Source: an uncultured Eubacteriales bacterium (GTDB taxonomy: Bacteria; Bacillota; Clostridia; Lachnospirales; Lachnospiraceae). From it: DNA of 64,000 bases. Under the pieces are notes generated by a model that did no database searches, was not told the origin of the DNA, and worked only from the letters and a program-made list of their open reading frames with translations. Position numbers and translations under genes: made by a program. Positions 2,305 through 55,360 of the stretch are shown here, piece after piece (position 1 is the stretch's first letter; each line of letters begins with the position of its first letter). Where the stretch lies: assembly GCA_900317515.1 (NCBI GenBank), contig ONHA01000015.1, positions 2,049-66,048 of the forward strand, given 5' to 3'.

Positions 2305-2334
2305 CTCCTCACCTCTTTCATTTGCTTAAAAATT

Positions 2335-2345
2335 ATTATATCACA
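2335..2345 (-). promoter_or_regulatory. Extended -10 promoter (TGnTATAAT) upstream of kdpD
   Basis: The minus strand reads TGTGATATAAT about 30 bp upstream of the ATG at 2304. Confidence 0.55.
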
Positions 2346-2360
2346 GAGGACAGCCTTCTT

Positions 2361-2675
2361 CTACTGCCGGAGATCGTATTTAATCGTATAGCCAGACGCT
2401 TCCAGGTGCTCGATGATGTGCGGATCGAGCGACTTACAGATAATGATTTCGTATTCTTCATCATCCGGCAGTGCATCCAGCATGGAGTTGACCTCTTGAG
2501 ATATCGCCTTTACACCCTTTCCCTCAGTCTCAGCTATATAGACCTTCCTGCTTGGCTTCTGTGGCTCCCAATAGCCACGGAAATTCTCATCCATAAATTT
2601 ACCAAAATGGTCTACCACAAAATACCCGAAAGCGAAGATGGCAAGCATCATTATAGCCAACAGGATGTCTTCCAC
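2361..2675 (-). CDS. Small hypothetical protein with an N-terminal TM helix, between ktr and kdpD
   Basis: 104-aa ORF with a hydrophobic N-terminus and an upstream GAGGAGG RBS. Confidence 0.7.
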   Translation of the reverse strand: MEDILLAIMMLAIFAFGYFVVDHFGKFMDENFRGYWEPQKPSRKVYIAETEGKGVKAISQEVNSMLDALPDDEEYEIIICKSLDPHIIEHLEASGYTIKYDLRQ

Positions 2676-2709
2676 GCGAATTCACCTCCTCTACGGGATA
2701 CAGAAAGGG

Positions 2710-4671
2710 CTAAATCTTAAAGCACTTTTGCATAGATTTTCGCTCCCCAAGCACGAGCATCGTCTTATTCTCGTTGAGAATTGTTTCTGGTGTTACAGAA
2801 AGATTCATTTTCCCGTTCTCTTTTATCGCCAAAATATTGATTCCGTAGCGTTTCCTTATGTCGATCTGCCCGATGGATTTTCCGATCCAGTCCTTTGGAA
2901 CAGACACTTCGTAGATTGCATGGTCATCATCAAGATTGATATAATCTAAGATATGATTGGACGTATAACGTATCGCCGCCCACTGGGCGATTTGCTTTTC
3001 GGGATTGATCACCTCGTCCGCCCCGTTTCTGAGCAGGAATTTTGCCTGAACCTCTCTGTCGGCACGGGACACAACAAGTCTTCCGCCTAACTCCTTCAGC
3101 AGGGATGTGGTTTCCAGCGAGCTTTGAAAGTCACTGCCTATCGTCACGATGCAGACATCAAAATTATTGATTCCGAGCGAGCGCAGGAAAGCCTCATTTG
3201 TACTGTCCCCGATCTGCGCATCTGTGACCAAAGGAAGGATCGCGTTAATTCGCGCCTCGTCCCGATCCACAGCCAAGACCTGATGCCCGAGATCGTGCAG
3301 CTGCTTTGCAATCATGGTTCCGAAATTGTTGATGCCACATCCGACGATTATCTTCTCTACAGGCCTCTGAGAGACATTGGTGCTTTTGCTGTTAATGGCA
3401 GCATAAATCAATGTCAGGCCACCCACTCGTCCTAAGAACATTAAAAGAATAAGTATAATGTGTGAAACAAGGCTGAGCGAAGGGGTAATCCCCAACGACA
3501 AACCGACCGTTCCGATAGCAGAAACTGTCTCAAAAATGCAGGCCCCGATCGGAAGTCCATCCGCCATGCTGATCACGGCAGCACCAATCATCGACAGAAT
3601 CAGATACATCAATAAGAGCGTTGCTGCGTTTCTGATCGTGCTGTCTTCTATCCTTCTTCCGAACAGCTGCGCGCTTTTTTTCCTCCGAAAGACTGAGACG
3701 GCGCCTGCAAAAAGAACGGCGATCGTCGTTGTCTTCATACCTCCTGCAGTCGATCCGGGGGATCCTCCGATCAGCATCAATACAACCAGCAGCATCCTTC
3801 CTGTCCCCGACAGATAAGAAAAGGAAACTGTATTGAAGCCTGCGGTTCTGGGTGTGATTGCCTGGAACAGGGAGAGGAAGACCCTGCCCTTGACAGCTCC
3901 GCTGGTATACTCAAATAAAAGCAAAAGAAGCATTGGAACGATGATCAGGGCTCCGGTTGTTGCAAGAACGACTTTACTTTGCATACGGTAGCTGCGAATG
4001 TGAAGCTTGTTGGTGGCAATATCTTCCCAGGTAAGGAATCCTATCCCTCCAATGATGATCAGCAAACAAATCGGAATCACGATTCCGGGATTCGAAGCAA
4101 AGGATGTCAGAGAGGAAAAAGGGCCTGTCTTGTCGCCCATAATGTCAAAGCCTGCGTTGCAGAATGCTGATACGGAATGAAAAACGGACATCCATATTCC
4201 GGAAAGACCATACCGCCCGCAAAATACAGGAAGCATGATCAGTGTGCCGGAAAGCTCGGCAACCAGTGCGATCTTAAAGACAAAACCTGTCATTTTTACG
4301 ATCCCGCCGATTTGATGGGCTGAGATGCTGTCCTGAAGCATGCTGCGCTGCAGCAGAGTAATCTTTCTCCCGGAAAGCATCGCAATGAATGCTGCGACGG
4401 ATACGATCCCCAGACCTCCGATTTGGATCAGGATCAGAATCACGGCCTGACCAAACCCGGACCAGTATGAAGCGGTATCTCTCACGACCAATCCTGTAAC
4501 GCACACGGCGGATGTGGATGTGAACAGGGCATCCTCGAGTGACGCGCTGCTGCCCTCCTTTACTGCAAAGGGAAGCATCAGCAGAGCTGTTCCAATCAGT
4601 ATTAATCCCAAAAATCCAAAGATGATAATTTGAAAGGGGGATAGTTTCTTTCCTAAAAAACGAATAACCAT
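2710..4671 (-). CDS. Fused TrkH/KtrB K+ transporter and TrkA/KtrA RCK regulatory subunit
   Basis: SAVCVTGL, SAFCNAGF, PRTAGF, GGSPGSTAGG and SAIGTVGLS pore motifs followed in frame by RCK_N and RCK_C domains. Start moved to the ATG at 4671 (GAAAGGAGG RBS). Confidence 0.9.
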   Translation of the reverse strand: MVIRFLGKKLSPFQIIIFGFLGLILIGTALLMLPFAVKEGSSASLEDALFTSTSAVCVTGLVVRDTASYWSGFGQAVILILIQIGGLGIVSVAAFIAMLSGRKITLLQRSMLQDSISAHQIGGIVKMTGFVFKIALVAELSGTLIMLPVFCGRYGLSGIWMSVFHSVSAFCNAGFDIMGDKTGPFSSLTSFASNPGIVIPICLLIIIGGIGFLTWEDIATNKLHIRSYRMQSKVVLATTGALIIVPMLLLLLFEYTSGAVKGRVFLSLFQAITPRTAGFNTVSFSYLSGTGRMLLVVLMLIGGSPGSTAGGMKTTTIAVLFAGAVSVFRRKKSAQLFGRRIEDSTIRNAATLLLMYLILSMIGAAVISMADGLPIGACIFETVSAIGTVGLSLGITPSLSLVSHIILILLMFLGRVGGLTLIYAAINSKSTNVSQRPVEKIIVGCGINNFGTMIAKQLHDLGHQVLAVDRDEARINAILPLVTDAQIGDSTNEAFLRSLGINNFDVCIVTIGSDFQSSLETTSLLKELGGRLVVSRADREVQAKFLLRNGADEVINPEKQIAQWAAIRYTSNHILDYINLDDDHAIYEVSVPKDWIGKSIGQIDIRKRYGINILAIKENGKMNLSVTPETILNENKTMLVLGERKSMQKCFKI

Positions 4672-4705
4672 ATTCTGCCTCCTTTCAAATACTGTGAGCA
4701 CATTG

Positions 4706-4779
4706 TATAACGCGAGCTGCAAAGATGGCATTAAGGTACTATGCCTTAGAATTAAAATTGCATAAAGATGGGATAAAGC
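4706..4779 (-). promoter_or_regulatory. Putative ktr promoter with tandem OmpR/KdpE-type boxes
   Basis: AAAGATGGCATTAAGG (4721-4736) and AAAGATGGGATAAAGC (4764-4779), TAAA half-sites at about 11-bp spacing, and a TATACAAT -10-like element on the minus strand. Confidence 0.4.
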
Positions 4780-4804
4780 CCTGTACGCCTCAAACTTGCA
4801 GGGC
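4778..4804 (-). terminator. Intrinsic terminator-like hairpin
   Basis: GCCCTGTA...TGCAGGGC stem followed by TTT on the minus strand. Confidence 0.5.
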
Positions 4805-4851
4805 GTTTCTATGTATGCACCGCAGGGGCTCCTGCGGTGTGTTTTTCTGTC

Positions 4852-5043
4852 TTAGTGTCCTCTGTCATAGCTATAGCTGCGGTGCCGGGGCTCCTGCCGC
4901 CTTGCGCCGTTCCGTCTCTTTGCCTCTGCCTCCATATCCCGGAGCTTCTTTCGGATGCTCTCCTTTTCAGGCGGTTTCTGCTGGGGCATTTCTTCGCCTT
5001 TGACCTGACGCTCCCATGCGACCAGATCACGGTTGTTCGTCGA
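4852..5043 (-). pseudogene. C-terminal remnant of a mobilisation/conjugation-element protein
   Basis: Start-less frame ...NNRDLVAWERQVKGEEMPQQKPPEKESIRKKLRDMEAEAKRRN...RSYSYDRGH*. This charged tail style recalls Firmicute ICE/IME proteins (inference). It is bounded upstream by an in-frame TGA. Confidence 0.35.
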
Positions 5044-5115
5044 TCAGGCAAAGCAGAAGCTGATCGAAAAAGGTACATAAGTACCGTGGCACCTTGAAAT
5101 ACGAATACGGGAACG

Positions 5116-5140
5116 AAAAAAGCCGGTCATAAAGACCGGC
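5116..5140 (-). terminator. Intrinsic terminator
   Basis: GCCGGTC-ATAAA-GACCGGC with an A6 tract on the plus strand (U tract on the minus strand). Confidence 0.6.
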
Positions 5141-5292
5141 GGATATGGTTAACAACGAGGAAAATGGACACGGCATTTATGCCGGTGGACATTTGACGAC
5201 TGTCTCCACGGAGGCGATAGCCGACGTGGTAACACGCACACCATATGTCACAGACCCGATTGCCACGGATACGGAAAGGAGAATCACGATCT

Positions 5293-5805
5293 ATGGCAAA
5301 AGGATCTGTCAGAAAGAAAGGCAAAAAGTGGTACTACCGCTTCTACGTGGAAAACGAAAGCGGAAATCTGGTGCAGAAGGAATACGCCGGGACGGAAAGC
5401 AAGTCCGAGACGGAAGCCCTGCTCCGAAAGGCAATGGAGGACTACGAGGCAAAGAAGTTCGTTGCCAGGTCCGAAAACGTCACGGTGGGCGATCTGCTGG
5501 ATATGTGGATCGAGGAAGATGTCAAGCCCGGCAATCTCTCCAACGGTACGGTAATGGCTTATCAGGGGGCTGTGGGACGCATCAAGCAGTTTCCCATCGG
5601 CAGCCGGAAGCTCAAAAACGTCACCTCGGAGCATTTGCAGGCGTTCTTCGATCTTCTGTCCTTCGGAGGCACCAATGCTGACGGTACAGAGGTCAAACCG
5701 CACAGCCGCGGCTATATGCGGCAGTTTTCGGCGGTGATGCAGGGCGCATTCTTTGTAAGAACCCGGAACTATCTCCCAATCACAAACTCAACACCCAGGG
5801 TATAG
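5293..5805 (+). pseudogene. Truncated tyrosine recombinase/integrase (arm-binding and core-binding domains only)
   Basis: MAKGSVRKKGKKWYYRFYVE...TVGDLLDMWIE...LKNVTSEHLQAFFD after a GAAAGGAG RBS. Resemblance ends at about 5751 (SAVMQGAF) and no catalytic RHRY domain follows. Confidence 0.85.
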
Positions 5806-5930
5806 GTATCATAATCCCCCGGGCCTCTCAAATCCATGATTCTGACCATAAGCCTGTAGCTGCCGTTATTAAGGCATTTCGAAAGACACACCTTATGAAC
5901 ATTTGTAAAATATTTTTACTTCAAAGAATA

Positions 5931-5956
5931 AAGGGCTTCGGTCTCCCGAAACCCTT
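5931..5956. terminator. Hairpin downstream of the duplicated tRNA 3' end
   Basis: AAGGGCTTCGG-TCTC-CCGAAACCCTT, an imperfect stem with AT-rich flanks. Confidence 0.45.
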
Positions 5957-5963
5957 ATATTTA

Positions 5964-6031
5964 TTGAGTCGATGCGACAGGATTTTCCCGTCAGAACGTC
6001 CACCGGACGTTCTGACCCTCTGCGTCCCGAA
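5964..6031 (-). repeat. Interrupted duplicate of the tRNA-Pro 3' half (att-like)
   Basis: TTGAGTCGATGCGACAGGATTT at 5964-5985 equals 6115-6136, and CCTCTGCGTCCCGAA at 6017-6031 equals 6147-6161. The two blocks are separated by the palindrome TCAGAACGTCC-ACC-GGACGTTCTGA (5991-6015). Confidence 0.9.
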
Positions 6032-6078
6032 AGTTCGGTCCTGCAGAAGCCGCAGATTCGATTCTCTCACTTCGTGTC

Positions 6079-6116
6079 AAACAAAAACGGATGCCATTCG
6101 GCATCCGTTTCTGTTT
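6079..6116 (-). terminator. tRNA-Pro terminator hairpin
   Basis: AAACAAAAACGGATGCC-ATTC-GGCATCCGTTTCTGTTT directly downstream of the tRNA. Confidence 0.7.
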
Positions 6117-6119
6117 GAG

Positions 6120-6193
6120 TCGATGCGACAGGATTTGAACCTGCGACCTCTGCGTCCCGAACGCAGCGCTCTACCAAACTGAGCCACGCATCG
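6120..6193 (-). tRNA. tRNA-Pro (anticodon CGG), CCA not encoded
   Basis: Minus strand CGATGCGTGGCTCAGTTTGGTAGAGCGCTGCGTTCGGGACGCAGAGGTCGCAGGTTCAAATCCTGTCGCATCGA folds into a cloverleaf with anticodon loop TTCGGGA. Confidence 0.97.
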
Positions 6194-7143: not shown

Positions 7144-8172
7144 ATGAAATCATCGACCTTAAAACTACCGACGATTCCCAACGAGCTCAGACTCGGCTGC
7201 ATCGCCTCCCTCTATTTTGAGGAGGTCAGGGATGTGCCCATGCCGAAACAGATCGAGGTGCTGGATACATTTTTCAAAGGCTTTATCGTGGAGGAGATCC
7301 CGTCCGACGGCCAGACCAAGCAGAATGCGGTCTACGATGATATTGACGGTCATATCAAGGCGGTGCGCTATCAGGGGAGCTATCACACCGGCCAGAGCAA
7401 GCGTGTGACCCAGATCATAGGGCGGCTGATCGGTACCGCAAAAAAAGGGATCGAGAAGGAGCGAAAGACTGCCTCCATCATTCAGGAAAGGATCGCCGGC
7501 GAGCTAGCCAATGATATCACTCGTGTAAATGAAGTGCGCCTCACCGTCATTGCCCTGTTTGAAAGCTTATCGGAACCGGAACTCGAGCGCTTCTACCTGA
7601 CATTTGCGAATTACATCAATGCGGTCGTCGCCCGCCGCGAGGCTATCAGCGAGCGCGACAAGGAGCTCGAGCTCTTCCCGATGAACGACGAGATCTTCTA
7701 CGATCTCATGAACTGCGTGATCGATGAGTGGAACAAAGACGAGCTGGAGCCGAAAGTAAACTCCGTAACCTGGCTGCTCTTAGGCGCCCTGCTCCGCAAC
7801 CGGATCAGCCGGCTCACCTACGTCTACGACAGCGCCTTCAACTTAAGAAGAGCCCAGCCGGCCGCGATCCGGGAGGATGAGGACTTCGAGTATTATTATG
7901 AGGGTGATGACCTGGACAAGCGCTTCCCGGGGATCGAGTGGTACTGCGACCGCTGCGGTGAGCATTTAAACGAGCAGGAGGGCTTCGACGACCACCACCA
8001 TATCTGGAAATGCACAAACTGCGGCTATAAAAATGCCATCGAGATCCGAAACATCTACGATCCCGATGACTTCGAGGTGAACGGCGGCCAGCCGACCGTC
8101 CCTGACAAGTTTTTCAAGGCTTTAAAGGAGCGGACGGACGAGCTGGACGAAATGAACGGGGACGGTTCCTGA
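7144..8172 (+). CDS. Hypothetical protein with a C-terminal 4-Cys zinc finger
   Basis: ATG at 7144 after an AGGAGAGG RBS; WYCDRCGEHLNEQEGF...WKCTNCGYKN. Confidence 0.8.
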   Translation: MKSSTLKLPTIPNELRLGCIASLYFEEVRDVPMPKQIEVLDTFFKGFIVEEIPSDGQTKQNAVYDDIDGHIKAVRYQGSYHTGQSKRVTQIIGRLIGTAKKGIEKERKTASIIQERIAGELANDITRVNEVRLTVIALFESLSEPELERFYLTFANYINAVVARREAISERDKELELFPMNDEIFYDLMNCVIDEWNKDELEPKVNSVTWLLLGALLRNRISRLTYVYDSAFNLRRAQPAAIREDEDFEYYYEGDDLDKRFPGIEWYCDRCGEHLNEQEGFDDHHHIWKCTNCGYKNAIEIRNIYDPDDFEVNGGQPTVPDKFFKALKERTDELDEMNGDGS

Positions 8173-48626: not shown

Positions 48627-48758
48627 ATGAACATCTTCGATATCCTGATCCTTCTTATCATCGCCGGCATTGCCGCGTTCTCCTACAAAAAGCATAAGAA
48701 AAACGGAAGCTGCTGCAAAGACTGCAATGACTGCGGCAGCTCCTGCTGCAAAAGATGA
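48627..48758 (+). CDS. FeoB-associated Cys-rich small membrane protein
   Basis: Manual translation MNIFDILILLIIAGIAAFSYKKHKKNGSCCKDCNDCGSSCCKR (43 aa) after an AAGGAG RBS. Below the ORF-track cutoff. Confidence 0.85.
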   Translation: MNIFDILILLIIAGIAAFSYKKHKKNGSCCKDCNDCGSSCCKR

Positions 48759-48790
48759 GGTGACGGCTTGGGGCCGTCACCTCTTTTTTT
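48757..48790 (+). terminator. Intrinsic terminator of the feo operon
   Basis: GAGGTGACGGC-TTGGG-GCCGTCACCTC followed by T7. Confidence 0.85.
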
Positions 48791-48802
48791 CAATCATTTT
48801 TG

Positions 48803-49408
48803 TTATCTTGCTTTCCTTTTCCTGCCGCTTATTATCAGCGCTGCGATTCCTGTGACCGCAAGACACATGAGACCTGCCCAGAGCGCCGCATGACTTTTGT
48901 CGCCTGTCTGGGGCGACAGCCTTGGTGGGATCGGTACATACCTGGCCTCGCCGCAGCCGGTGCAGGTATATTTGATCTGTCCCGGTTCACCGCCCGATGC
49001 CTGCTTTACAATCACTCCGCTGTCCCACGTATGGACATGAGGAGGCGGAGCAAAGACGACTGTCAACAAGGCATTCCCCGTCAGGGCAGGTGCGGTATAC
49101 ACGCCGCCCGATACCGACTCCGTGACGTTCTCGCCGTTATAGAGGACGCTGCTTATCTTGCATCCGCTGTCAGGTGTGATCGTATAGGTGAGAACCGTAT
49201 CCGGATCCGCCTTGAAAGAGGCGTCACCCGTGTACGTGAGACCGCCTGTCGTGACCGCTCCGTGATCCCCGATGCTCAGCGTCACCGTACATGGAATGGA
49301 GGTGGTAAGGGTCATGCTCCCTTCGGCAGCATATACCGGGAGCGATAAAGCTGCAGGCAGAAGCAAAACGGCAAGGAAAGCGGAAAAGAGCCTTACAATT
49401 CTTTTCAT
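48803..49408 (-). CDS. Small sortase-anchored surface protein
   Basis: Signal peptide, Ig-like beta domain, HVHTWDSG...YTCTGCG motif, then SPQTGD + TM helix + RKRKAR tail. Confidence 0.8.
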   Translation of the reverse strand: MKRIVRLFSAFLAVLLLPAALSLPVYAAEGSMTLTTSIPCTVTLSIGDHGAVTTGGLTYTGDASFKADPDTVLTYTITPDSGCKISSVLYNGENVTESVSGGVYTAPALTGNALLTVVFAPPPHVHTWDSGVIVKQASGGEPGQIKYTCTGCGEARYVPIPPRLSPQTGDKSHAALWAGLMCLAVTGIAALIISGRKRKAR

Positions 49409-49433: not shown

Positions 49434-49967
49434 CTATATTATGATCCTGAACGAGAACGTTACTGTCGCCTGATAGGTCGCGCCTGCCGTTGCGCCTGAC
49501 CAGTCGCCCACCTTGGCAAAATATTCGATATTGCTATAACCATTTTCGTCAAAATTCGGAAAAGTATTATGGTCGACACCTTTTTCATACGCAATCGGCC
49601 GGGCGTTCGACTCGTCCAAACCATTCTTTTTTACCAATTTGGGAGTATTGTAATTTTCGTAATGCTCATAAAGCTCCAGCGGAATTGTATCTGTGGAATC
49701 AGCTGTATTGATCAAGTCGTCATAAGGGGCTTTAACAGAAATCTTATTGAGCCCGGACACATCGGTGACATATACAATGCCCAGACTCTGCAGTTCCGTA
49801 TTTCCATATTCCAGCGTGTAATCGGCCGGGATATGAATGGTATACGTGGGTGCCGGGATCTCAGCCGTAAGGGTCATGCTGGCGGTCGGTTCCTCCTCTG
49901 CATAGACGGCAACGGACATGCCGAGAACCAATACAAGACTGAGCATAAGAGCGATCATTTTTTTCAT
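49434..49967 (-). CDS. Secreted hypothetical protein (WxL/pilin-like beta fold possible)
   Basis: Signal peptide ending VYA-E and a C-terminal TYQATVTFSF strand. Confidence 0.75.
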   Translation of the reverse strand: MKKMIALMLSLVLVLGMSVAVYAEEEPTASMTLTAEIPAPTYTIHIPADYTLEYGNTELQSLGIVYVTDVSGLNKISVKAPYDDLINTADSTDTIPLELYEHYENYNTPKLVKKNGLDESNARPIAYEKGVDHNTFPNFDENGYSNIEYFAKVGDWSGATAGATYQATVTFSFRIII

Positions 49968-49990: not shown

Positions 49991-50485
49991 TTATTTGACC
50001 TTCAGGGTCAGATTAGTTTCTACGCCGTTCAGCGGCGTCAGAGCTTCGTCCATCATGAAGCATTCATACTTCAAAACGGCGTCTTTGTACTCGCCCGCGG
50101 AAAGCGGAGTACTAAATACAACGGGACCGGATTCTTCTCCCGGGGCGATCAGTTCCGAAGTCCAGAGGAGCGTTCCGTCCTCAAGAAGCAGGCTGGCCCG
50201 GATATAACAGAAATTCTTCTCCGGGTTCGACAGACAAACCTCCTGTCTTTCGGTTCCCGCTTTAAAGCTCAGCTCCCCATAGCCGGGAAGCTCTATACTG
50301 TCGGTCAGCTTCTCTGCTGACTGAGCGGAGGAATTCGATGCATTTTGTCCCGCGCCGTCCGTTTTGTCCTTACTGCGCGTGGTAACCGGCCATATTGCAG
50401 CGGCAATCACGGCCGCCACGGCAATCAGGGCCAGTCCAACGATGAGGATATCCTTTTTCGTAAAATTCGCTTTTATCTGCCTCAC
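49991..50485 (-). CDS. Membrane-anchored exported hypothetical protein
   Basis: GTG start after GGAGGG, one N-terminal TM helix, LSNPEKNFCY...LIAPGE...LNG beta-rich domain. Confidence 0.8.
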   Translation of the reverse strand: MRQIKANFTKKDILIVGLALIAVAAVIAAAIWPVTTRSKDKTDGAGQNASNSSAQSAEKLTDSIELPGYGELSFKAGTERQEVCLSNPEKNFCYIRASLLLEDGTLLWTSELIAPGEESGPVVFSTPLSAGEYKDAVLKYECFMMDEALTPLNGVETNLTLKVK

Positions 50486-50796
50486 CCCTCCTGCTTTTTA
50501 ATAAACTTCCCAAGGCGGGGATCAAGAGGAGGTTTGGGCTGTCCTCCCGGAAGATGCGGCTTTCTGCCGTTGCCGCACGGATCATCCGTCTCCATCGGAT
50601 CCTTCGGCCCCTGAAGGACGACAGGCGTGCTGCCGCACGGATCATCGGGATTCTTCGGAAGCACCGGTCCTTCAAGCTCGTGGGGCTCATTACCGCACCA
50701 GGACGCCTGCGCCAGCTTGAGGTCCGCATCTTTTTTATCCCGGAGTTTTTCTGCCTGCGCTATGACGCGGTTTTTGGAAATTTCCTTTTCACTCAT
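50482..50796 (-). CDS. 104-aa Pro-rich protein with Cys-Gly repeats at a 20-residue period
   Basis: Strong GAGGAGGAG RBS, 18 bp after the response regulator and overlapping the next gene by 4 nt. C34, C54 and C74 are each followed by Gly. Confidence 0.75.
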   Translation of the reverse strand: MSEKEISKNRVIAQAEKLRDKKDADLKLAQASWCGNEPHELEGPVLPKNPDDPCGSTPVVLQGPKDPMETDDPCGNGRKPHLPGGQPKPPLDPRLGKFIKKQEG

Positions 50797-50814
50797 TTTC
50801 TCTCCTCCTCAAGA

Positions 50815-51471
50815 TTAGTTTTTATGATGATTGGTCCGTTCATCGTCATGGATGACCAGACCCAGCATCCGTACATTCATCGCCAGTTCGAGACGACTGG
50901 CAAAACCTGTCTTCTCCATGATATTCTGCAGATGCCGCTTTACCGTATTGACGGAAATATGCAGCTTGTCCGCAATCTCATCATTGGTGAGGCTGGCTGT
51001 CAGCTCACGCAGCACATCCAGTTCCCGTTCCGTCAGGTCGCTTCGCCTGATTCTGCCGAAGTTCACCTCCGGCGGCTCTGCCGGGTAGACCGATTCGCCT
51101 TCCGAGGTGCGGTCCATAATCTCGATCAGGCTGTGGTCGTCATACTCCTTGTACCAGAAGCTCTCCACACCGATTTCCCGGGCTTTGTCCTCCCAGCTGG
51201 TCTCCGAAGTGGATGTGGTCAGGATAATCTTAAGTTCCGGGTGCTTCTGCTTGATTAACCCGGCGGCAGTGAGCCCGTCGATTCCTTCCTGCATCATTAC
51301 ATCAAGAATTAAAAGGTCGGCTTCATGTACATCCACGTAATCGACCGCCTCCTGCGCTGTCCTGAGGGACGCGGCCAGTTCATAGCGGCCGGCGGCACGA
51401 ACATACATTTCGAAAAATCCCCGGGATATATTCTGATCGTCCGCTACGACGACTCTGATTCGGTCATTCAC
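50815..51471 (-). CDS. NarL/LuxR-family response regulator
   Basis: VVVADDQ, LLILDV phospho-Asp, conserved T and K, and HTH LTERELDVL...TVKRHLQNI. Confidence 0.93.
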   Translation of the reverse strand: MNDRIRVVVADDQNISRGFFEMYVRAAGRYELAASLRTAQEAVDYVDVHEADLLILDVMMQEGIDGLTAAGLIKQKHPELKIILTTSTSETSWEDKAREIGVESFWYKEYDDHSLIEIMDRTSEGESVYPAEPPEVNFGRIRRSDLTERELDVLRELTASLTNDEIADKLHISVNTVKRHLQNIMEKTGFASRLELAMNVRMLGLVIHDDERTNHHKN

Positions 51472-51641: not shown

Positions 51642-52925
51642 TTATGAGTTCCCGATTGTCAGGGTCAGTGAAAATGACGGCAGATATTCTACGTGCATCT
51701 GTCCGCCCGCTGCTTCGACGCTGCGGCGCAGGGAAAGCAGACCGCCGCTCTCATCAATCGGACCCTTCGGAGGCTTGCCGTTGTTGGTGACGGTTATGAC
51801 GGTATCGGCAGCTTTTTCCGTGATTCGAACAAAAAGCCGGTCGCCCTCGGCGTGCTTGACAGCGTTGGCTGCACATTCCCGGATTGCGGCGGCAAGAAGA
51901 GAGCGCAGCTTTTCCGCCCGGGGAGGTTCGCCTTGCATCTCGACGGACACACCGATGCTGTCTGCCATATGAAACGTCTCCCGCAGCTTATCCCCGGGTT
52001 CGGTCATAGAAGCTTTGTTCTCACCCAGCAGAAAGCTGTTCATTTGCCCGGTCATCAGAGCGACCACGGCGGCGTCCGTGGTATCGGGATGCTCTATATA
52101 ATGGCGGCCCATCAGCAGCACCTGCCCCAGCTCGTTGTGGAGGGCGGTATGTGCCCCGGCCTTCTCCTGGTTCACAAACATCTCCCCGGACAGTTCCGAT
52201 GCTTTCCTCATACGGCGCTGAATCTCCTGCAGATGCTCGTTCTTTTCCCGGAGCTCCTCCGTAATACGGTACTGGCCGGTCGCATTCACCGCGCTTGTGC
52301 GCTCGTAATGCTGTCCGTCTATGGAAAGACTCTCCTCTTCGAACAGCCAGACTTCACCGCGCGGGGTATGGATGAGGTATTTGCCGCTCTGCTCCTCTTC
52401 GTTCTTCTTAATATAAGCCCGGAATGCCCGGGCATCAGACAGACGTTCGCCCGTGAGCTCACGGCACAAAGCGTCCATTTTGAGGTTCGCAAGCCGTACG
52501 GTGCCGTCCTCCGCACTGACCGAGATCCCTTCCGGGAGAAGATCGACAGCCTGCCGGATAGCCTCCGGGGTCACAGTATCTGTCTTATAACGCCTGTATT
52601 CCCGAAAATGAAACACCAGCACCGCCGCAGATAACGCCTCTAACCCCGCATAAATAACCCACGGCAGAGAAAAGACAAACCATTCTGTCTGAACCGAGTC
52701 TCTCGGTATCGTAAGAAAATTGACGTTGTCAAACCCATCCAGGATGACCACGAAAATCATAAAGCCGGCCAGAAGATGAAGCGCGGCAAACCGCAGCTGT
52801 TTTCCGCTCTTTTTCTCCTGAAGGGAAATCAGGAAAGCGGCTGTCTGGCCGATCACAAGGAAGAGAGCAGTCACGAGGAGGATCAATGCCCATGGTCTGT
52901 CAAGAATACTGTACAGCGGCCTCAT
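51642..52925 (-). CDS. HisKA_3-type sensor histidine kinase (3 TM + PAS-like + HATPase)
   Basis: ALHNELGQVL H-box, ECAANAVKHA N-box, TNNG and GGLLSLRRSVEAAGG G-boxes. Confidence 0.8.
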   Translation of the reverse strand: MRPLYSILDRPWALILLVTALFLVIGQTAAFLISLQEKKSGKQLRFAALHLLAGFMIFVVILDGFDNVNFLTIPRDSVQTEWFVFSLPWVIYAGLEALSAAVLVFHFREYRRYKTDTVTPEAIRQAVDLLPEGISVSAEDGTVRLANLKMDALCRELTGERLSDARAFRAYIKKNEEEQSGKYLIHTPRGEVWLFEEESLSIDGQHYERTSAVNATGQYRITEELREKNEHLQEIQRRMRKASELSGEMFVNQEKAGAHTALHNELGQVLLMGRHYIEHPDTTDAAVVALMTGQMNSFLLGENKASMTEPGDKLRETFHMADSIGVSVEMQGEPPRAEKLRSLLAAAIRECAANAVKHAEGDRLFVRITEKAADTVITVTNNGKPPKGPIDESGGLLSLRRSVEAAGGQMHVEYLPSFSLTLTIGNS

Positions 52926-54556
52926 CTTCCGCCACCTCCTTCCGCACGAACGGTCAGGAAGAAGCAGCCGTCGCTCTCCCTCAACTCCACCGGAAGCGCG
53001 GTCGCGGGCAAAGCAGGGCTCCTCGCTGCCTCCACGGCAAGCCGGACACCGCCTTTGGACAGCGATACGGTCATCCTGCGCATATACGGCAGGAAGGCTT
53101 CAATCAATGTTTCAAAACTGTCGTAGAGCGCATGAACGGAATCAAGCGGAAAACCGGAGTATTCTTCTCCCGTAGCCGCCGCATCAATTCCGCAGCATTT
53201 AAGGAAACGTGCAGACTCCTGCAGCGCAAGAAAAAGCTCACGGTTAGGCTGCGGGAGACTTTCCTCGGAAAGCAGCATCAGATTGCTCTTTCGTTTGCAG
53301 TAAGCGTTCAGTACGCAGCACACGGCCAGTACGGAGGGAAAGTTTTCCGACTCCGGAGACGTACTCTTCAGCAGCGACTCGATCTCTTTCTGTTTCGGGT
53401 AGAGCGCTGCCGCAATACGGTCATAAACCTGGTTCTGCGCGTCCAGATGAGCCTTCTTCGCCTTCAGCTCGTTCTCCAAGGCGATCAGGTCATTTTCCTC
53501 GCTTAAGAGTTCATTGGCCGAGGCAAGGCGCCTGCTCTCCTGATGGAGCCCGCTCTCATCTTCTGTCCAGAAGGCATAGCCGGGATGTATTTTCATTCCC
53601 AGAAGCTTTGTGTCTTCATTTAGATATACCGGCCCCCGTGCAGCTGCTGAAAGCTGCCCGGAGCCTGCGGCGACCGGCAGGTTGGTCTCGTAAACCGTCG
53701 TAAAGTCTTCGTCCGTTATGAGAACCGGCAGTCCCAGATTGGAAAAGAAGCTGATGTAATTCTCATTATACGGAATAAACCGGTTTCGGATACAGACCTC
53801 AAAAGAGCCCAACATGCCAAAAACCTGTATTTCCGGAAAATGGTACATGCGGACCAGATCAAGAGGTGTAAATACCAGTCTGTTGAGGAGGCTTAAGCCT
53901 GCCCAGATAAATGCGACCCCGGCGAACCATAATAATCCCCGAATATTCTGCCTGTATGTTTTACGGATCAGTATCACAAAGCCGGTCATCATCGTTATCA
54001 CGATCCAGCCGTACATCAGATAAAACAGCGGACCGTAGGTATAAGTGCCGACGATGCTGTGAAACTCCGAAAGCGGAATGAGCCGGTGATAGAACAACTG
54101 ATGCAGGTCGTTCATCATGATAAGGAGCAGCAAGGTGCAGGCGGAAAAGAGGAGCAGGCGTTCCTTCCCCTTCCCTTCGCCCTCCTCACCTCTGCTGATC
54201 CGGATGCAGGTCATAAGAAAAAGTGTCGGGACCAGGATCATCGGGATATTGTATGCATAATCGGCATAGCGCCTGATCACCACTTCCGTCAAAATGCGGA
54301 ATCTCAGGACCCGGACAAGAAGGTAGAAGATCATCAGGATGGCAGACGCTAAGATGTAGCCCCGGGCTTTGGTCGGCAGGAGCCTCTCCCGGACGGCCTG
54401 CATCCAGAAGATCAGCAGTCCGATGTAGATCATGAAGTTCGCGCTGAACATGAAGGTGTCTAAGATGGAGATGTGCGTTCTGGTCAGCATGTTGGTGATT
54501 CCCCCGAGAAGGAGGAAGCCGAAAAACAGCCTGGTGCTTCTCATCTGTTTTTTCAT
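52922..54556 (-). CDS. 7TM sensor with a degenerate kinase-like C-terminus (pseudokinase)
   Basis: About 7 hydrophobic helices, a PAS-like segment and a coiled coil. No H, N or G boxes. 4-nt overlap with the kinase gene. Confidence 0.7.
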   Translation of the reverse strand: MKKQMRSTRLFFGFLLLGGITNMLTRTHISILDTFMFSANFMIYIGLLIFWMQAVRERLLPTKARGYILASAILMIFYLLVRVLRFRILTEVVIRRYADYAYNIPMILVPTLFLMTCIRISRGEEGEGKGKERLLLFSACTLLLLIMMNDLHQLFYHRLIPLSEFHSIVGTYTYGPLFYLMYGWIVITMMTGFVILIRKTYRQNIRGLLWFAGVAFIWAGLSLLNRLVFTPLDLVRMYHFPEIQVFGMLGSFEVCIRNRFIPYNENYISFFSNLGLPVLITDEDFTTVYETNLPVAAGSGQLSAAARGPVYLNEDTKLLGMKIHPGYAFWTEDESGLHQESRRLASANELLSEENDLIALENELKAKKAHLDAQNQVYDRIAAALYPKQKEIESLLKSTSPESENFPSVLAVCCVLNAYCKRKSNLMLLSEESLPQPNRELFLALQESARFLKCCGIDAAATGEEYSGFPLDSVHALYDSFETLIEAFLPYMRRMTVSLSKGGVRLAVEAARSPALPATALPVELRESDGCFFLTVRAEGGGGR

Positions 54557-54568
54557 AACTGCCCTTCT

Positions 54569-55360
54569 TTAAATGCGGATCTTCCGCATCACGCTCCCGA
54601 TGCTCTCGTGAAAGACCAGATCCGCCCTGCCTTCAAGCCTCGTCGGCCCCTTGTTGATGATCACCAGGTATTTCCCGTGGTACATGTGCGCGAGCTGGGC
54701 CGCCGAACCCACCTCAAGCGAGGTCCCGCCGATGATGAGGCAGTCCGCGTAGCGGATCCAGGCGGCCGCCTGCTCGTACTCGTTCGTGGGGAGAAACTCC
54801 CCGTACAGCGTGACGTCCGGCCGTACAACGCCGCCGCACTCCGGGCAGTGCGGGATGGGCTCTTCATTTTCGAAAATGAAATTCTCCCCGTACTCCCGCC
54901 TGCACTTCGTACAGTAACTCCGCAGCACGCTTCCGTGGATCTCCGCCACGCGGCGGCTCCCGGCTTTCTGGTGCAGCCCGTCGATGTTCTGCGTGATGAC
55001 CCCGTCGAGCCTGCCGGCCTTCTCCATCTCCGCAAGTTTCTCGTGAGCCGCGTTCGGCATAGCGCCTCTGCTGTCCAGGTTCTTGCGCATATAGGAGAAG
55101 AACACTTCAGGCTCCCGCTCGAGGCAGTCGATGCTAAGGAGATATTCCGGTTTGTATTTTTTGAAGGCCTTATCCCTCTTTTTGTAGAGCCCGTTTTTCC
55201 CGCGGAAATCCGGGATCCCGCTCTCCGTGGAGACGCCCGCGCCGCCTAAAAACACGATGTGCTCCGACTCCTTCAGGATACGGTTCAGGGCGTCATATTT
55301 CTCCTCGCCCTCTAGCGAATGAAAACACTTCTGTTTCTCCCTCTCGGAAATGAATTTCAC
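54569..55360 (-). CDS. cobB: NAD-dependent protein deacylase (sirtuin)
   Basis: GAGVSTESGIPDFR, TQNIDGLH, EIHGS, CxxC/CxxC and GTSL motifs. Confidence 0.93.
   Translation of the reverse strand: MKFISEREKQKCFHSLEGEEKYDALNRILKESEHIVFLGGAGVSTESGIPDFRGKNGLYKKRDKAFKKYKPEYLLSIDCLEREPEVFFSYMRKNLDSRGAMPNAAHEKLAEMEKAGRLDGVITQNIDGLHQKAGSRRVAEIHGSVLRSYCTKCRREYGENFIFENEEPIPHCPECGGVVRPDVTLYGEFLPTNEYEQAAAWIRYADCLIIGGTSLEVGSAAQLAHMYHGKYLVIINKGPTRLEGRADLVFHESIGSVMRKIRI

What the first reader, a model, noticed from the sequence alone, without database searches (positions are those of the whole stretch)
50482..50796. 104-aa protein with Cys-Gly at exactly residues 34, 54 and 74 after a leader-like helix
Seen: a charged N-terminal ~32 aa, then repeats approximating CG[NS]xPxxL[EQ]GPxxPxxxDDP, and a decayed fourth unit (DPR at 92-94 in the DPC register). 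At DNA level TGCCGCACGGATCATC recurs exactly 60 bp apart (50571-50586 and 50631-50646). There is no signal peptide. Inference: either a multi-core RiPP or signal-peptide precursor that could be the ligand for the adjacent 7TM sensor, or a metal/thiol-binding disordered scaffold. No modifying enzyme or peptidase-transporter is visible in the window.
Basis: partly seen in the sequence, partly recalled or inferred. Interest (0 to 1): 0.7.

Follow-up and report, generated by a model that had tools for sequence, protein, structure and literature searches.

The report
Small Cys-repeat protein leading adhesin operons
The 104-residue Cys-Gly repeat protein is a real, rare and previously undescribed small disordered protein that always sits just in front of surface-protein (adhesin/sortase) genes on mobile elements of gut and rumen Clostridia; nothing supports it being a secreted pheromone or modified-peptide precursor, and its function is still only inferred.

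Summary
Window 50482-50796 (-) encodes 104 aa with Cys-Gly at 34, 54 and 74, an N-terminal helix, 20-aa units, and a 16-nt direct repeat 60 bp apart.

It belongs to a real but rare family: about 20 sequences of 53-113 aa, none in 399 other genomes sampled from its class.
- Members carry one to three Cys units.
- The best-conserved part is the last unit, DPCGNG[RK]xPxLPx6PxDPR[LV].
- Repeat number changes by in-frame deletions. An 84-aa relative lacks exactly the unit lying between the two 16-nt repeats.

The gene always directly precedes the first exported-protein gene of a surface-protein or sortase operon, and that gene's ribosome-binding site lies at the small gene's 3' end. It usually follows a 7TM-pseudokinase/kinase/NarL-regulator cassette. 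However, one locus has no such cassette, 20 homologous cassettes lack the gene, and an orthologous operon has lost it.

No maturase, peptidase or exporter accompanies it in any context. There is no signal peptide, and AlphaFold predicts disorder.

Best reading (about 0.35): an intracellular leader-cistron protein, translationally coupled to surface-protein synthesis, acting through a proline-rich Cys-bearing linear motif. RiPP or pheromone readings are disfavoured. The motif resembles apidaecin, which is only a post hoc lead.

The parts
50482..50796 (-). Small ORF, 104 aa: the Cys-Gly repeat protein, a member of a new family of 53-113 aa proteins
   Evidence: ORF list and sequence. Homologues found. 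Purifying selection. No Pfam, NCBIfam, PHROGs or PDB match.
50797..50814 (-). 18-nt spacer after the regulator's stop, carrying the ribosome-binding site GAGGAGGAG of the small ORF
   Evidence: Sequence. The spacer is in frame with the regulator gene and holds two stops, TAA and TGA.
50704..50790 (-). Charged N-terminal helix (residues 3-31). This is the variable part of the family, and natural alleles tolerate its deletion
   Evidence: AlphaFold2 helix 3-31. Poorly conserved apart from the MSEKK start. Lost or frameshifted in natural alleles.
50638..50697 (-). Unit 1 (residues 34-53), CGNEPHELEGPVLPKNPDDP
   Evidence: CG[NT]EPxxL is conserved in all long forms.
50578..50637 (-). Unit 2 (residues 54-73), CGSTPVVLQGPKDPMETDDP. 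It is bounded by the two 16-nt direct repeats and is absent from the 84-aa allele P0002
50571..50586 (.). Direct repeat copy 1, TGCCGCACGGATCATC (coding strand reads DDPCG)
   Evidence: 2 matches in the window, 0 expected.
50631..50646 (.). Direct repeat copy 2, exactly 60 bp from copy 1
50512..50583 (-). Conserved C-terminal module (residues 72-95), DPCGNGRKPHLPGGQPKPPLDPRL. This is the family's signature and the part under selection
   Evidence: 24 residues without indels in 9 loci, with CGN and PxDPR invariant. One residue longer in the two most divergent members.
50482..50511 (-). Purine-rich tail (GKFIKKQEG plus stop). It contains the ribosome-binding site (AGCAGGAGGGG) and the overlapping GTG start (GTGA) of the next gene
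   Evidence: The predicted hairpin between codons 89-91 (CCUCCUCUU) and this ribosome-binding site is seen only in the window.
49991..50485 (-). 164-aa protein with an N-terminal membrane anchor, translationally coupled to the small ORF
   Evidence: 55-60% identical homologues follow the small ORF in L020 and L088.
49434..49967 (-). 177-aa secreted protein with a signal peptide
   Evidence: Weak homologues lie in the same position in L020 and L088.
48803..49408 (-). 201-aa LPXTG-type wall-anchored protein, the last gene of the operon. A bidirectional terminator lies at 48757-48783
   Evidence: TIGR01167 LPXTG anchor, 20.3 bits against a cut-off of 15.9. Terminator.
50815..51471 (-). NarL/LuxR-type response regulator
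   Evidence: Pfam Response_reg 4.2e-15 and GerE 2.8e-16.
51642..52925 (-). Membrane histidine kinase, 427 aa
   Evidence: Pfam HATPase_c 8.4e-5. Conserved partner gene in every cassette examined.
52922..54556 (-). 544-aa 7TM sensor protein with no detectable ATPase domain
   Evidence: The only Pfam match is HisKA_7TM, 3.3e-9. Found in 33 of 401 genomes of the order.

Best explanation
The ORF is a genuine, translated gene for a new family of small, signal-less, intrinsically disordered proteins. It is the leader cistron of a horizontally mobile surface-protein/sortase operon.

Shown by sequence:
- It always lies at the 5' end of such an operon. It sits either 13-31 nt behind the NarL-type regulator of a 7TM-sensor/kinase/regulator cassette, or behind the operon's own promoter-like leader.
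- Its stop codon overlaps the start of the first exported-protein gene, or lies 5-40 nt before it. That gene's ribosome-binding site lies in or right after the small ORF's last codons. The two are therefore made from one mRNA and are very likely translationally coupled.
- The selected part is one C-terminal module of about 24 residues, DP-CGNG-[RK]x-P-x-L-P-x6-P-x-DPR-[LV].
- The upstream 20-aa Cys-Gly units are diverged copies of that module. They are gained and lost in frame by recombination between short direct repeats.

Inferred:
- The product stays in the cytoplasm and is made in step with the surface proteins.
- It acts through the proline-rich, Cys-bearing linear motif on a conserved cellular partner, so as to tune production or export of those proteins. 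Candidate partners are the translation or secretion-targeting machinery, rather than the fast-diverging sensor.
- It is a dispensable modulator, not a core part of either the two-component cassette or the adhesin operon.
- It is not a RiPP or pheromone precursor.
For: Real gene under selection.

Family of about 20 sequences with invariant C-G-N and P-x-D-P-R.

Position. The gene directly precedes the first signal-peptide or membrane-anchor gene of a surface operon in every context seen: window, L016, L020-22, L023-26, L027, L028-32, L033, L034, L035, L086, L087, L088. The downstream ribosome-binding site lies at the small ORF's 3' end.

It travels with the surface operon rather than the sensor:
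- L088 has the small ORF followed by 171-aa, 165-aa, Flg_new-LPXTG and sortase genes, with no kinase or regulator upstream.
- In clade B a terminator and a promoter-like site separate it from the regulator.
- 20 homologous cassettes lack it.

In clade B the signal peptide of the next gene is conserved together with the small ORF, while the mature adhesin parts are swapped.

Intracellular and disordered: no hydrophobic segment, and a helix plus disorder in AlphaFold2.

The motif is conserved far better than the sensors: 7TM 27%, kinase 28-31% and regulator 48% identity between clades, against a 24-aa motif without indels.

Dispensable or modulatory: in-frame unit losses, a 5' deletion allele, a frameshifted allele, and clean absence from an orthologous operon.
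Against: - No partner is identified. An AlphaFold2 model of the natural in-frame read-through fusion of regulator and small protein left the repeat region undocked (pLDDT about 35).
- No residues in the sensor, kinase or regulator are specific to cassettes that carry the small gene.
- The many broken or shortened alleles could mean weak selection. In the L028-L032 allele the native start is gone and no standard in-frame start follows the promoter-like site, yet the adhesin gene persists.
- Stop/start overlap is common in operons and does not by itself prove functional coupling.
- The role of the invariant Cys remains unexplained.
Confidence: 0.35

Rival explanations
1. Cis-acting nascent-chain regulator (arrest or pause peptide). 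As the ribosome nears the end of the small ORF, the roughly 21-residue stretch from CGNG to DPR[LV] fills the exit tunnel and slows elongation. This gates the hand-over of ribosomes, or exposure of the ribosome-binding site, for the downstream exported-protein gene. It would work like SecM, MifM or VemP but without a secretion-sensing N-terminus.
For: - Conservation is confined to a C-terminal, nearly fixed-length, proline-rich module, while the N-terminal part varies and can be deleted.
- The ORF ends at the ribosome-binding site and start of the next gene.
- The motif resembles apidaecin, a peptide that lies in the exit tunnel in nascent-chain orientation with its Arg-Leu end at the peptidyl-transferase centre (PMC5960728; similarity test, shuffle p 0.0002 for the window and 0.004-0.04 for other members).
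- In the window, codons 89-91 can pair with the downstream ribosome-binding site.
Against: - There is no conserved hairpin sequestering the ribosome-binding site across loci. Its unpaired probability is 0.43-0.73.
- The distance from the DPR codons to the downstream start varies from about 23 to 55 nt.
- There is no N-terminal export or membrane segment, which all known monitoring substrates have.
- It does not explain why the extra Cys-Gly units are conserved in the long forms.
- The apidaecin comparison was chosen after the fact.
Confidence: 0.15
2. Accessory or feedback component of the two-component cassette (a connector protein in the sense of MgrB, PmrD or DegQ). It would be produced under control of the regulator and bind the kinase, pseudokinase or regulator to tune signalling, possibly through a thiol switch.
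For: - It lies directly after, or under the presumed control of, a homologous 7TM/kinase/NarL cassette in all contexts with upstream sequence except one.
- It has persisted with cassettes that have diverged to 27-48% identity.
Against: - L088 has the gene with no cassette upstream.
- 20 homologous cassettes of the same order lack it, including ones closer to the window's cassette than clade B is.
- An orthologous operon (G012) lacks it.
- AlphaFold2 predicts no docking to the regulator.
- No cassette residues are specific to carriers of the gene.
Confidence: 0.15
3. Redox, electrophile or metal-responsive thiol protein. The exposed Cys of each unit would be the working residue (disulfide, persulfide or metal bridging, or a covalent modification site), linking a thiol-reactive cue to surface-protein production.
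For: - Cys followed by Gly is the most conserved feature of every unit, and at least one is present in every member.
- Each Cys sits in a disordered, solvent-exposed context flanked by Asp-Pro.
Against: - Cys number varies from 1 to 3 between close relatives.
- There are no CxxC or CxC clusters and no His partners.
- Equally invariant non-thiol residues (GN, PxDPR) point to peptide recognition rather than chemistry alone.
- Nothing here tests the chemistry.
Confidence: 0.15
4. Multi-core RiPP or peptide-pheromone precursor, exported and sensed by the 7TM sensor.
For: - The outline looks right: an N-terminal helix, then repeated Cys-containing units.
- The gene is adjacent to a multi-pass sensor and a NarL-type regulator, as ComX is to ComP/ComA (general knowledge).
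- Repeat number is variable.
Against: - No maturase, protease or exporter appears in any of about ten mobile contexts.
- No radical SAM gene lies on the contig, and the only C39 transporter is elsewhere in the genome.
- There is no export signal and the sequence is highly hydrophilic.
- The supposed core is conserved while sensors diverge to 27% identity, and the supposed leader is variable.
- Cassettes exist without the gene, and the gene exists without a cassette.
Confidence: 0.07
5. A decaying or selfish leftover with no function of its own. On this view it survives only because its 3' end carries the ribosome-binding site of the next gene.
For: - Broken, shortened or frameshifted alleles are frequent (P0003, P0005, P0011-P0014).
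- The gene is rare and patchy: 0 of 399 other genomes of the class.
Against: - The motif is kept at amino-acid level with synonymous sites near saturation (pS 0.5-0.8 against pN 0.2-0.34).
- It is retained across cassettes that are only 27-48% identical.
- The selected residues lie 3-12 codons upstream of the ribosome-binding site, so that site cannot explain their conservation.
Confidence: 0.08

Closest known systems
Regulatory upstream ORFs that encode arrest peptides (SecM-secA, MifM-yidC2, VemP-secDF2; ApcA, ApdA and ApdP, PMC7897499)
   Same: A protein of about 90-170 aa is encoded directly upstream of, and coupled to, a gene of the export pathway. Conservation is concentrated in a proline-containing C-terminal stretch about as long as the ribosomal tunnel.
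   Different: There is no N-terminal signal or membrane segment. The downstream gene is an exported substrate (adhesin or anchor protein), not export machinery. No conserved hairpin masks the ribosome-binding site, and no known arrest motif (RAGP, RAPP) is present. Stalling is untested.
Apidaecin-type (type II) proline-rich antimicrobial peptides of insects (PMC5960728, PMC13233979)
   Same: GN[NG]R at the start, K/R-P and P-x-P in the middle, and [H/D]-P-R-[L] at the end over 18-21 residues. Both come from multi-unit precursors with acidic, proline-rich spacers.
   Different: The bacterial motif lies inside a larger cytoplasmic protein and is followed by 3-12 more residues. It therefore lacks the free Arg-Leu C-terminus needed to trap release factors. 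It has no secretion or processing signals. The similarity is short, low in complexity and was noticed post hoc.
Gram-positive peptide pheromone precursors (AgrD, ComX)
   Same: Small and signal-less, with an N-terminal helix and a conserved Cys or modified residue. Encoded next to a multi-pass membrane kinase and, for ComX, a NarL-type regulator.
   Different: No AgrB- or ComQ-like processing gene is present. The 'mature' part is the conserved part instead of the variable one. The gene also occurs without the sensor cassette, and the cassette occurs without the gene.
Small modulators of two-component systems (MgrB, PmrD, DegQ, DegR)
   Same: A small protein encoded in or next to the regulon of a two-component system, which is dispensable and modulatory.
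   Different: There is no sequence similarity and no membrane segment (unlike MgrB). Co-occurrence with the cassette is not obligatory, and no interaction was predicted.
Multi-core RiPP precursors
   Same: Tandem similar units, each with a conserved Cys, following an N-terminal helix.
   Different: No maturase or exporter appears in any context, and conservation of 'leader' versus 'core' is reversed.

Membership tests
RiPP precursor (multi-core) | Co-localised modifying enzyme (radical SAM/SPASM, YcaO, LanM and similar) | tested here: not met
   None appears in the gene lists of about ten contexts. All 19 radical SAM genes of the genome lie on other contigs.
RiPP precursor (multi-core) | Conserved leader and variable core | tested here: not met
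   The N-terminal part is variable and tolerates deletion. The C-terminal unit is the conserved part.
RiPP precursor (multi-core) | Dedicated peptidase or exporter | tested here: not met
   No such gene appears in any context. The single C39 transporter is on contig C30, away from the window's contig C44.
Peptide pheromone precursor (AgrD/ComX type) | Adjacent processing or modification gene (AgrB, ComQ, ComAB) | tested here: not met
   Absent from all contexts.
Peptide pheromone precursor (AgrD/ComX type) | Obligate pairing with its sensor kinase | tested here: not met
   L088 has the gene without a cassette. 20 cassettes and the G012 ortholog have no such gene.
Peptide pheromone precursor (AgrD/ComX type) | Exported, processed peptide detectable outside the cell | not testable with these tools
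   This needs peptidomics. No export signal is present in the sequence.
Ribosome arrest peptide / monitoring substrate | ORF directly upstream of, and coupled to, the regulated gene | tested here: met
   The stop overlaps the next start or lies 5-40 nt before it, and the ribosome-binding site lies at the ORF's 3' end.
Ribosome arrest peptide / monitoring substrate | Conserved C-terminal motif about as long as the tunnel | tested here: met
   A 24-residue module without indels in 9 loci. It is one residue longer in P0022 and P0023.
Ribosome arrest peptide / monitoring substrate | N-terminal signal or membrane segment that senses the export machinery | tested here: not met
   The longest hydrophobic run is 3 residues in five members.
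Ribosome arrest peptide / monitoring substrate | mRNA structure masking the downstream ribosome-binding site, opened by the stalled ribosome | tested here: inconclusive
   A hairpin is predicted in the window only. The unpaired probability of the ribosome-binding site is 0.43-0.73 in 8 loci.
Ribosome arrest peptide / monitoring substrate | Demonstrated elongation or termination arrest | not testable with these tools
   This needs toeprinting or ribosome profiling.
Type II proline-rich antimicrobial peptide (apidaecin-like) | Penultimate Arg and hydrophobic last residue at a free C-terminus | tested here: not met
   R-[LV] is invariant but is followed by 3-12 residues in every member.
Type II proline-rich antimicrobial peptide (apidaecin-like) | N-terminal Gly, K/R-P motifs and an 18-20-residue Pro-rich body | tested here: met
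   Alignment GNGRKPHLPGGQPKPPLDPRL against GNNRPVYIPQPRPPHPRL. Composition-preserving shuffle p is 0.0002 for the window and 0.004-0.04 for other members. The apidaecin sequence is from memory and the comparison is post hoc.
Small two-component modulator (connector) | Physical interaction with kinase or regulator | tested here: inconclusive
   An AlphaFold2 model of the regulator/small-protein read-through fusion shows no docking. The alignment for the small part was shallow, and the kinases could not be tested.
Metallothionein-like / metal-binding peptide | Clustered Cys (CxC, CxxC) or Cys/His ligand sets | tested here: not met
   There is one Cys per 20 residues, and 1 to 3 Cys per protein.

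The most novel reading that the evidence does not exclude
The conserved C-terminal module (CGNG[RK]xPxLPx6PxDPR[LV]) is a bacterial, gene-encoded counterpart of apidaecin-type tunnel-binding peptides. It would engage the ribosomal exit tunnel either as the nascent chain (a new class of arrest or pause peptide that gates translation hand-over to adhesin genes without a secretion-sensing N-terminus) or, after trimming, in trans as a modulator of translation termination. The invariant Cys could then make this brake sensitive to a thiol-reactive cue.
Probability: 0.08. Interest if true: 0.85.

Novelty: new variant of a known kind. Interest (0 to 1): 0.48.

Why it matters
Small proteins on mobile elements of gut anaerobes are largely uncharted. 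This one is a clean case. It is a conserved, disordered, Cys-bearing repeat protein that marks the 5' end of horizontally exchanged adhesin/sortase operons, whose mature adhesin parts are swapped behind a constant 'small ORF plus signal peptide' head.

If it tunes adhesin production, it is a handle on how commensal Clostridia control surface display and possibly cell-to-cell contact during conjugation. If the tunnel-binding reading holds, it would be a new type of nascent-chain regulator and an unexpected bacterial parallel to insect antimicrobial peptides.

The negative result is also useful. A 'leader helix plus repeated Cys cores next to a sensor kinase' is not enough to call a RiPP or pheromone.

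Tried and rejected
- **Family libraries.** Pfam, NCBIfam, PHROGs and a PDB profile search gave no match for the small protein.
- **Tandem Repeats Finder.** It found no DNA-level array.
- **Close and distant relatives.** A search of 60 relatives gave only chance-level hits. 400 genomes of the class gave none besides the window's own.
- **Contig collection scans.** Genome contigs and metagenome contigs returned only 2 loci each. A first attempt with the wide alignment failed for lack of a conserved stretch.
- **Docking test.** The regulator and the small ORF happen to be in frame, so I modelled the read-through fusion (TAA=Q, TGA=W). The regulator folded well and the repeat region stayed undocked. 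A first alignment that included divergent small proteins was misaligned by MAFFT and was discarded.
- **Masking hairpin.** I looked for a conserved hairpin over the downstream ribosome-binding site and found none.
- **Carrier-specific residues.** Nothing notable in the sensor, kinase or regulator, and no Cys.
- **Rfam.** No family matched the clade-B leader or that part of the window.
- **G012 fusion idea.** I tested whether G012's longer 217-aa protein is a fusion with the small ORF's N-terminus. It is not; it aligns to the membrane protein's own N-terminus.
- **P0007.** This is a eukaryote-like protein with CCP-type repeats, hit through DCGSTPVILNG. I treated it as spurious.
- **Literature.** Searches on HisKA_7TM and on small protein/sortase/conjugative contexts found nothing on this family.
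Full report
**1. The observation**

The minus-strand ORF 50482-50796 encodes MSEKEISKNRVIAQAEKLRDKKDADLKLAQASWCGNEPHELEGPVLPKNPDDPCGSTPVVLQGPKDPMETDDPCGNGRKPHLPGGQPKPPLDPRLGKFIKKQEG.
- Cys-Gly sits at 34/35, 54/55 and 74/75, and DPR at 92-94 is in the register of the DPC boundaries.
- The 16-mer TGCCGCACGGATCATC occurs at 50571-50586 and 50631-50646 only, with 0 expected. On the coding strand it reads DDPCG.
- Tandem Repeats Finder reports nothing, so the units are old copies that share only this boundary.
- A GAGGAGGAG ribosome-binding site precedes the ATG. The gene starts 18 nt after the stop of a NarL/LuxR-type response regulator, and its stop overlaps the GTG start of the next gene (GTGA).
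- AlphaFold2 with a 17-sequence alignment gives a helix at residues 3-31 and no structure after it (mean pLDDT 61.5).
- No hydrophobic run exceeds 3 residues, so there is no signal peptide or membrane segment.

**2. It is a real family**

A phmmer search of 1.84 billion representative proteins found five true relatives plus one spurious hit. Two profile searches of the 5.8-billion-protein collection raised this to about 20 distinct sequences of 53-113 aa. None matches Pfam, NCBIfam, PHROGs or any PDB chain.

All members have:
- an MSEKK-like start in most cases, followed by a variable charged stretch;
- zero to two units of the form CG[NT]EPxxLxxPx5DP;
- one terminal unit DPCGNG[RK]xPxLPx6PxDPR[LV], followed by a short purine-codon (basic) tail.

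P-x-D-P-R is invariant and C-G-N nearly so. The terminal module is 24 residues without indels in nine loci, and one residue longer in the two most divergent members.

Selection is visible at the codon level:
- Whole-protein dN/dS is mostly 0.2-0.5.
- In the module, synonymous sites are near saturation (pS 0.5-0.8) while pN is 0.2-0.34.
- The DPR codons differ between loci, so selection acts on the peptide, not the RNA.

**3. Repeat number is polymorphic**

- An 84-aa protein from a 98%-identical relative (GCA_045544135) lacks exactly unit 2. This is the product expected from recombination between the two 16-nt repeats.
- P0011 and P0012 are other in-frame deletion forms, with one hybrid unit or the terminal unit only.
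- The P0005 allele has a frameshift 17 codons into the ORF, rescued by a GTG 4 nt after the ATG.
- The L028-L032 allele has lost the whole leader and the first ~20 codons through a deletion between CGTAAG and CGTAAAG microhomologies.
- P0003 is a frameshifted variant of the window's protein.

The N-terminal two thirds is thus expendable in nature. The terminal module is kept in all but P0003 and, in part, P0011.

**4. Context**

In the window the operon on the minus strand runs as follows:
1. 7TM sensor without a detectable ATPase domain (HisKA_7TM)
2. Membrane histidine kinase
3. NarL-type regulator
4. Small ORF
5. 164-aa membrane-anchored protein
6. 177-aa secreted protein
7. 201-aa LPXTG protein
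8. Terminator

The block has lower G+C (0.49-0.55) than its flanks (0.58-0.63). It lies between cobB and feoB, and in the close relative it is followed by a partial second copy of cobB.

Elsewhere the small gene was found in about ten further contexts from human gut, rumen and other metagenomes. Many lie next to relaxases and serine recombinases. Two things are constant.
- **It is immediately followed by the first exported-protein gene of a surface operon.**
  - The downstream operons are of two kinds. One is the 164/177/LPXTG type. The other is large Flg_new/Big_3 adhesins, often with DUF5640 and a sortase.
  - The small gene's stop overlaps the next start or lies 5-40 nt before it.
  - The ribosome-binding site of the next gene lies in or just after its last codons.
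  - This explains the basic tail: AAA AAG CAG GAG GGG, AAC AAA ACA AAG AGG and similar codon strings.
- **It is usually preceded by a homologous sensor/kinase/regulator cassette.**

**5. Which neighbour does it belong to?**

Several results tie it to the surface operon rather than to the sensor.
- In clade B (L023, L034, L086) an intrinsic terminator follows the regulator. A ~430-nt leader with a promoter-like site then precedes the small ORF.
- In L088 the same kind of leader, the small ORF and a 171-aa/165-aa/215-aa/Flg_new-LPXTG/sortase operon lie next to guaA with no kinase or regulator upstream. The 171-aa protein is 55% identical to the window's 164-aa protein.
- The 7TM-sensor gene occurs in 33 of 401 genomes of the order. 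In all 17 fetched loci long enough to show all three genes, it was followed by the kinase and regulator genes. None of the 20 loci fetched encodes a relative of the small protein, including cassettes closer to the window's (regulator 56-62% identical) than clade B is (48%).
- In species G012 of the same genus, an operon whose regulator is 84% identical goes straight from the regulator into the membrane-anchored protein.
- In clade B the signal peptide of the downstream adhesin is conserved together with the small ORF, while the mature parts differ in at least four ways.

The family is very rare: 0 of 60 relatives and 0 of 399 other genomes of the class.

**6. What it is not**

A RiPP or pheromone precursor needs a maturase, a protease or an exporter.
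- None is present in any context, although these are mobile cassettes that must work in new hosts.
- All 19 radical SAM genes of this genome lie on other contigs, and the one C39 transporter is on contig C30.
- The conservation pattern is the reverse of leader/core logic.
- The motif is almost unchanged between cassettes whose sensors are 27% identical. This is not how pheromone-receptor pairs evolve.
- The protein is hydrophilic throughout.

A dedicated metal site is unlikely with one Cys per 20 residues and 1-3 Cys per protein.

**7. What it most likely is**

*Shown.* It is a translated small gene at the head of the surface operon. It shares an mRNA with the first exported-protein gene and very probably is translationally coupled to it. 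Its product is disordered, and the constraint lies on a short linear motif.

*Inferred.* The protein stays in the cell, is made in proportion to the surface proteins, and acts through the proline-rich, Cys-bearing motif on a conserved partner. Because the motif outlasts the divergence of the sensors and occurs without them, the partner is more likely general machinery (translation, targeting or export) than the cassette. I give this reading about 0.35.

Tests of a regulator partner were negative but weak.
- The regulator and the small ORF are in frame, so the read-through fusion could be modelled. The regulator folded (pLDDT above 85-97) while the repeat region stayed at pLDDT about 35.
- No cassette residues are specific to carriers of the small gene.

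**8. The cis alternative and the apidaecin lead**

The pattern (a C-terminal, nearly fixed-length, proline-rich module in an ORF that ends at the next gene's start, with an expendable N-terminus) is also what arrest peptides such as SecM, MifM and VemP look like.

The module resembles apidaecin 1b: GNGRKPHLPGGQPKPPLDPRL against GNNRPVYIPQPRPPHPRL.
- The composition-preserving shuffle p is 0.0002 for the window and 0.004-0.04 for other members.
- The pattern is unique in the six-frame translation of the genome.
- Apidaecin-type peptides lie in the exit tunnel in nascent-chain orientation, with the penultimate Arg and the last hydrophobic residue at the peptidyl-transferase centre (PMC5960728, PMC13233979).

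Against this reading:
- The comparison was made after the fact, with a sequence recalled from memory.
- The bacterial motif is followed by 3-12 residues.
- The distance from DPR to the next start varies from 23 to 55 nt.
- No conserved hairpin masks the ribosome-binding site.
- There is no secretion-sensing N-terminus.

I rate the cis reading 0.15 and the specific tunnel-mimic idea about 0.08.

**9. Limits**

No partner is identified, and the role of the Cys is unexplained. The many damaged alleles leave room for weak selection. The experiments that would settle the question are listed under next steps.

Noticed in passing
L034 4024-4448; L023 7538-7997; L086 about 7512-7970; L088 1575-2055: A conserved leader of about 430 nt precedes the small ORF where it is not fused to the regulator. 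In order it holds a terminator after the regulator, a promoter-like site (TTGACA-17-GACAAT in L034; TTGACG-17-TATGCT in L088), a short tandem repeat, a hairpin with a T run, and a conserved AAAGGNGGTGGT box. The tandem repeat differs in unit and copy number: (ACAG)4 in L034, (ACAG)6 in L023, a longer mixed array in L086 and (GGCTACA)4 in L088. No Rfam family matches. It could be a phase-variable or attenuator-type leader for the adhesin operon. Several assemblies break here (L028, L033, L035).
   Followed up: partly
L029 about 3790-3880 (also L028, L030-L032): A natural deletion allele. Microhomology between CGTAAG and CGTAAAG removes the whole leader and the first ~20 codons of the small ORF. 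This places the upstream TATAAT box directly before the truncated ORF and the adhesin gene, so it may be a 'locked' expression variant.
   Followed up: partly
L023, L028, L033, L034, L035, L086: first ~40 codons of the gene after the small ORF: The signal peptides of the downstream adhesins are homologous (…RLFSxLLxLVMLxGLLPMGQVxxA), but the mature N-termini differ in at least four ways. Adhesin bodies appear to be exchanged behind a constant 'small ORF plus signal peptide' head.
   Followed up: partly
L088 (GCA_965354805) 2056-6111: The most divergent family member is 80 aa, with the motif WCGNNPTVPPLEKPAPSPPLDPRL. It heads a 171-aa/165-aa/215-aa/Flg_new-LPXTG/sortase operon beside guaA, with no two-component cassette upstream.
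   Followed up: yes
L016 6234-6668 compared with window 54919-55354: In the 98%-identical relative, the seven-gene block is followed by a second, truncated copy of the 5' part of cobB (94.5% identical over 436 bp), plus an ApbA-family gene that the window lacks. The insertion site is therefore prone to rearrangement. The block has lower G+C (0.49-0.55) than its flanks (0.58-0.63).
   Followed up: partly
window 51642-54556: The 544-aa 7TM protein matches only HisKA_7TM and no ATPase domain, while the 427-aa partner has HATPase_c. In the 17 fetched loci of the same order long enough to show them, the sensor gene was followed by the kinase and NarL-type regulator genes in that order, and the sensor gene itself occurs in 33 of 401 genomes. 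In those loci the cassette is followed by varied genes, several of them for secreted proteins.
   Followed up: partly
L069 and L081 (regulator genes of related cassettes): The regulator genes of two related cassettes carry an internal stop in the aligned stretch. They are possible pseudogenes or assembly errors.
   Followed up: no
window 6120-6193 (-): A tRNA gene. It was the only Rfam match in the window.
   Followed up: no
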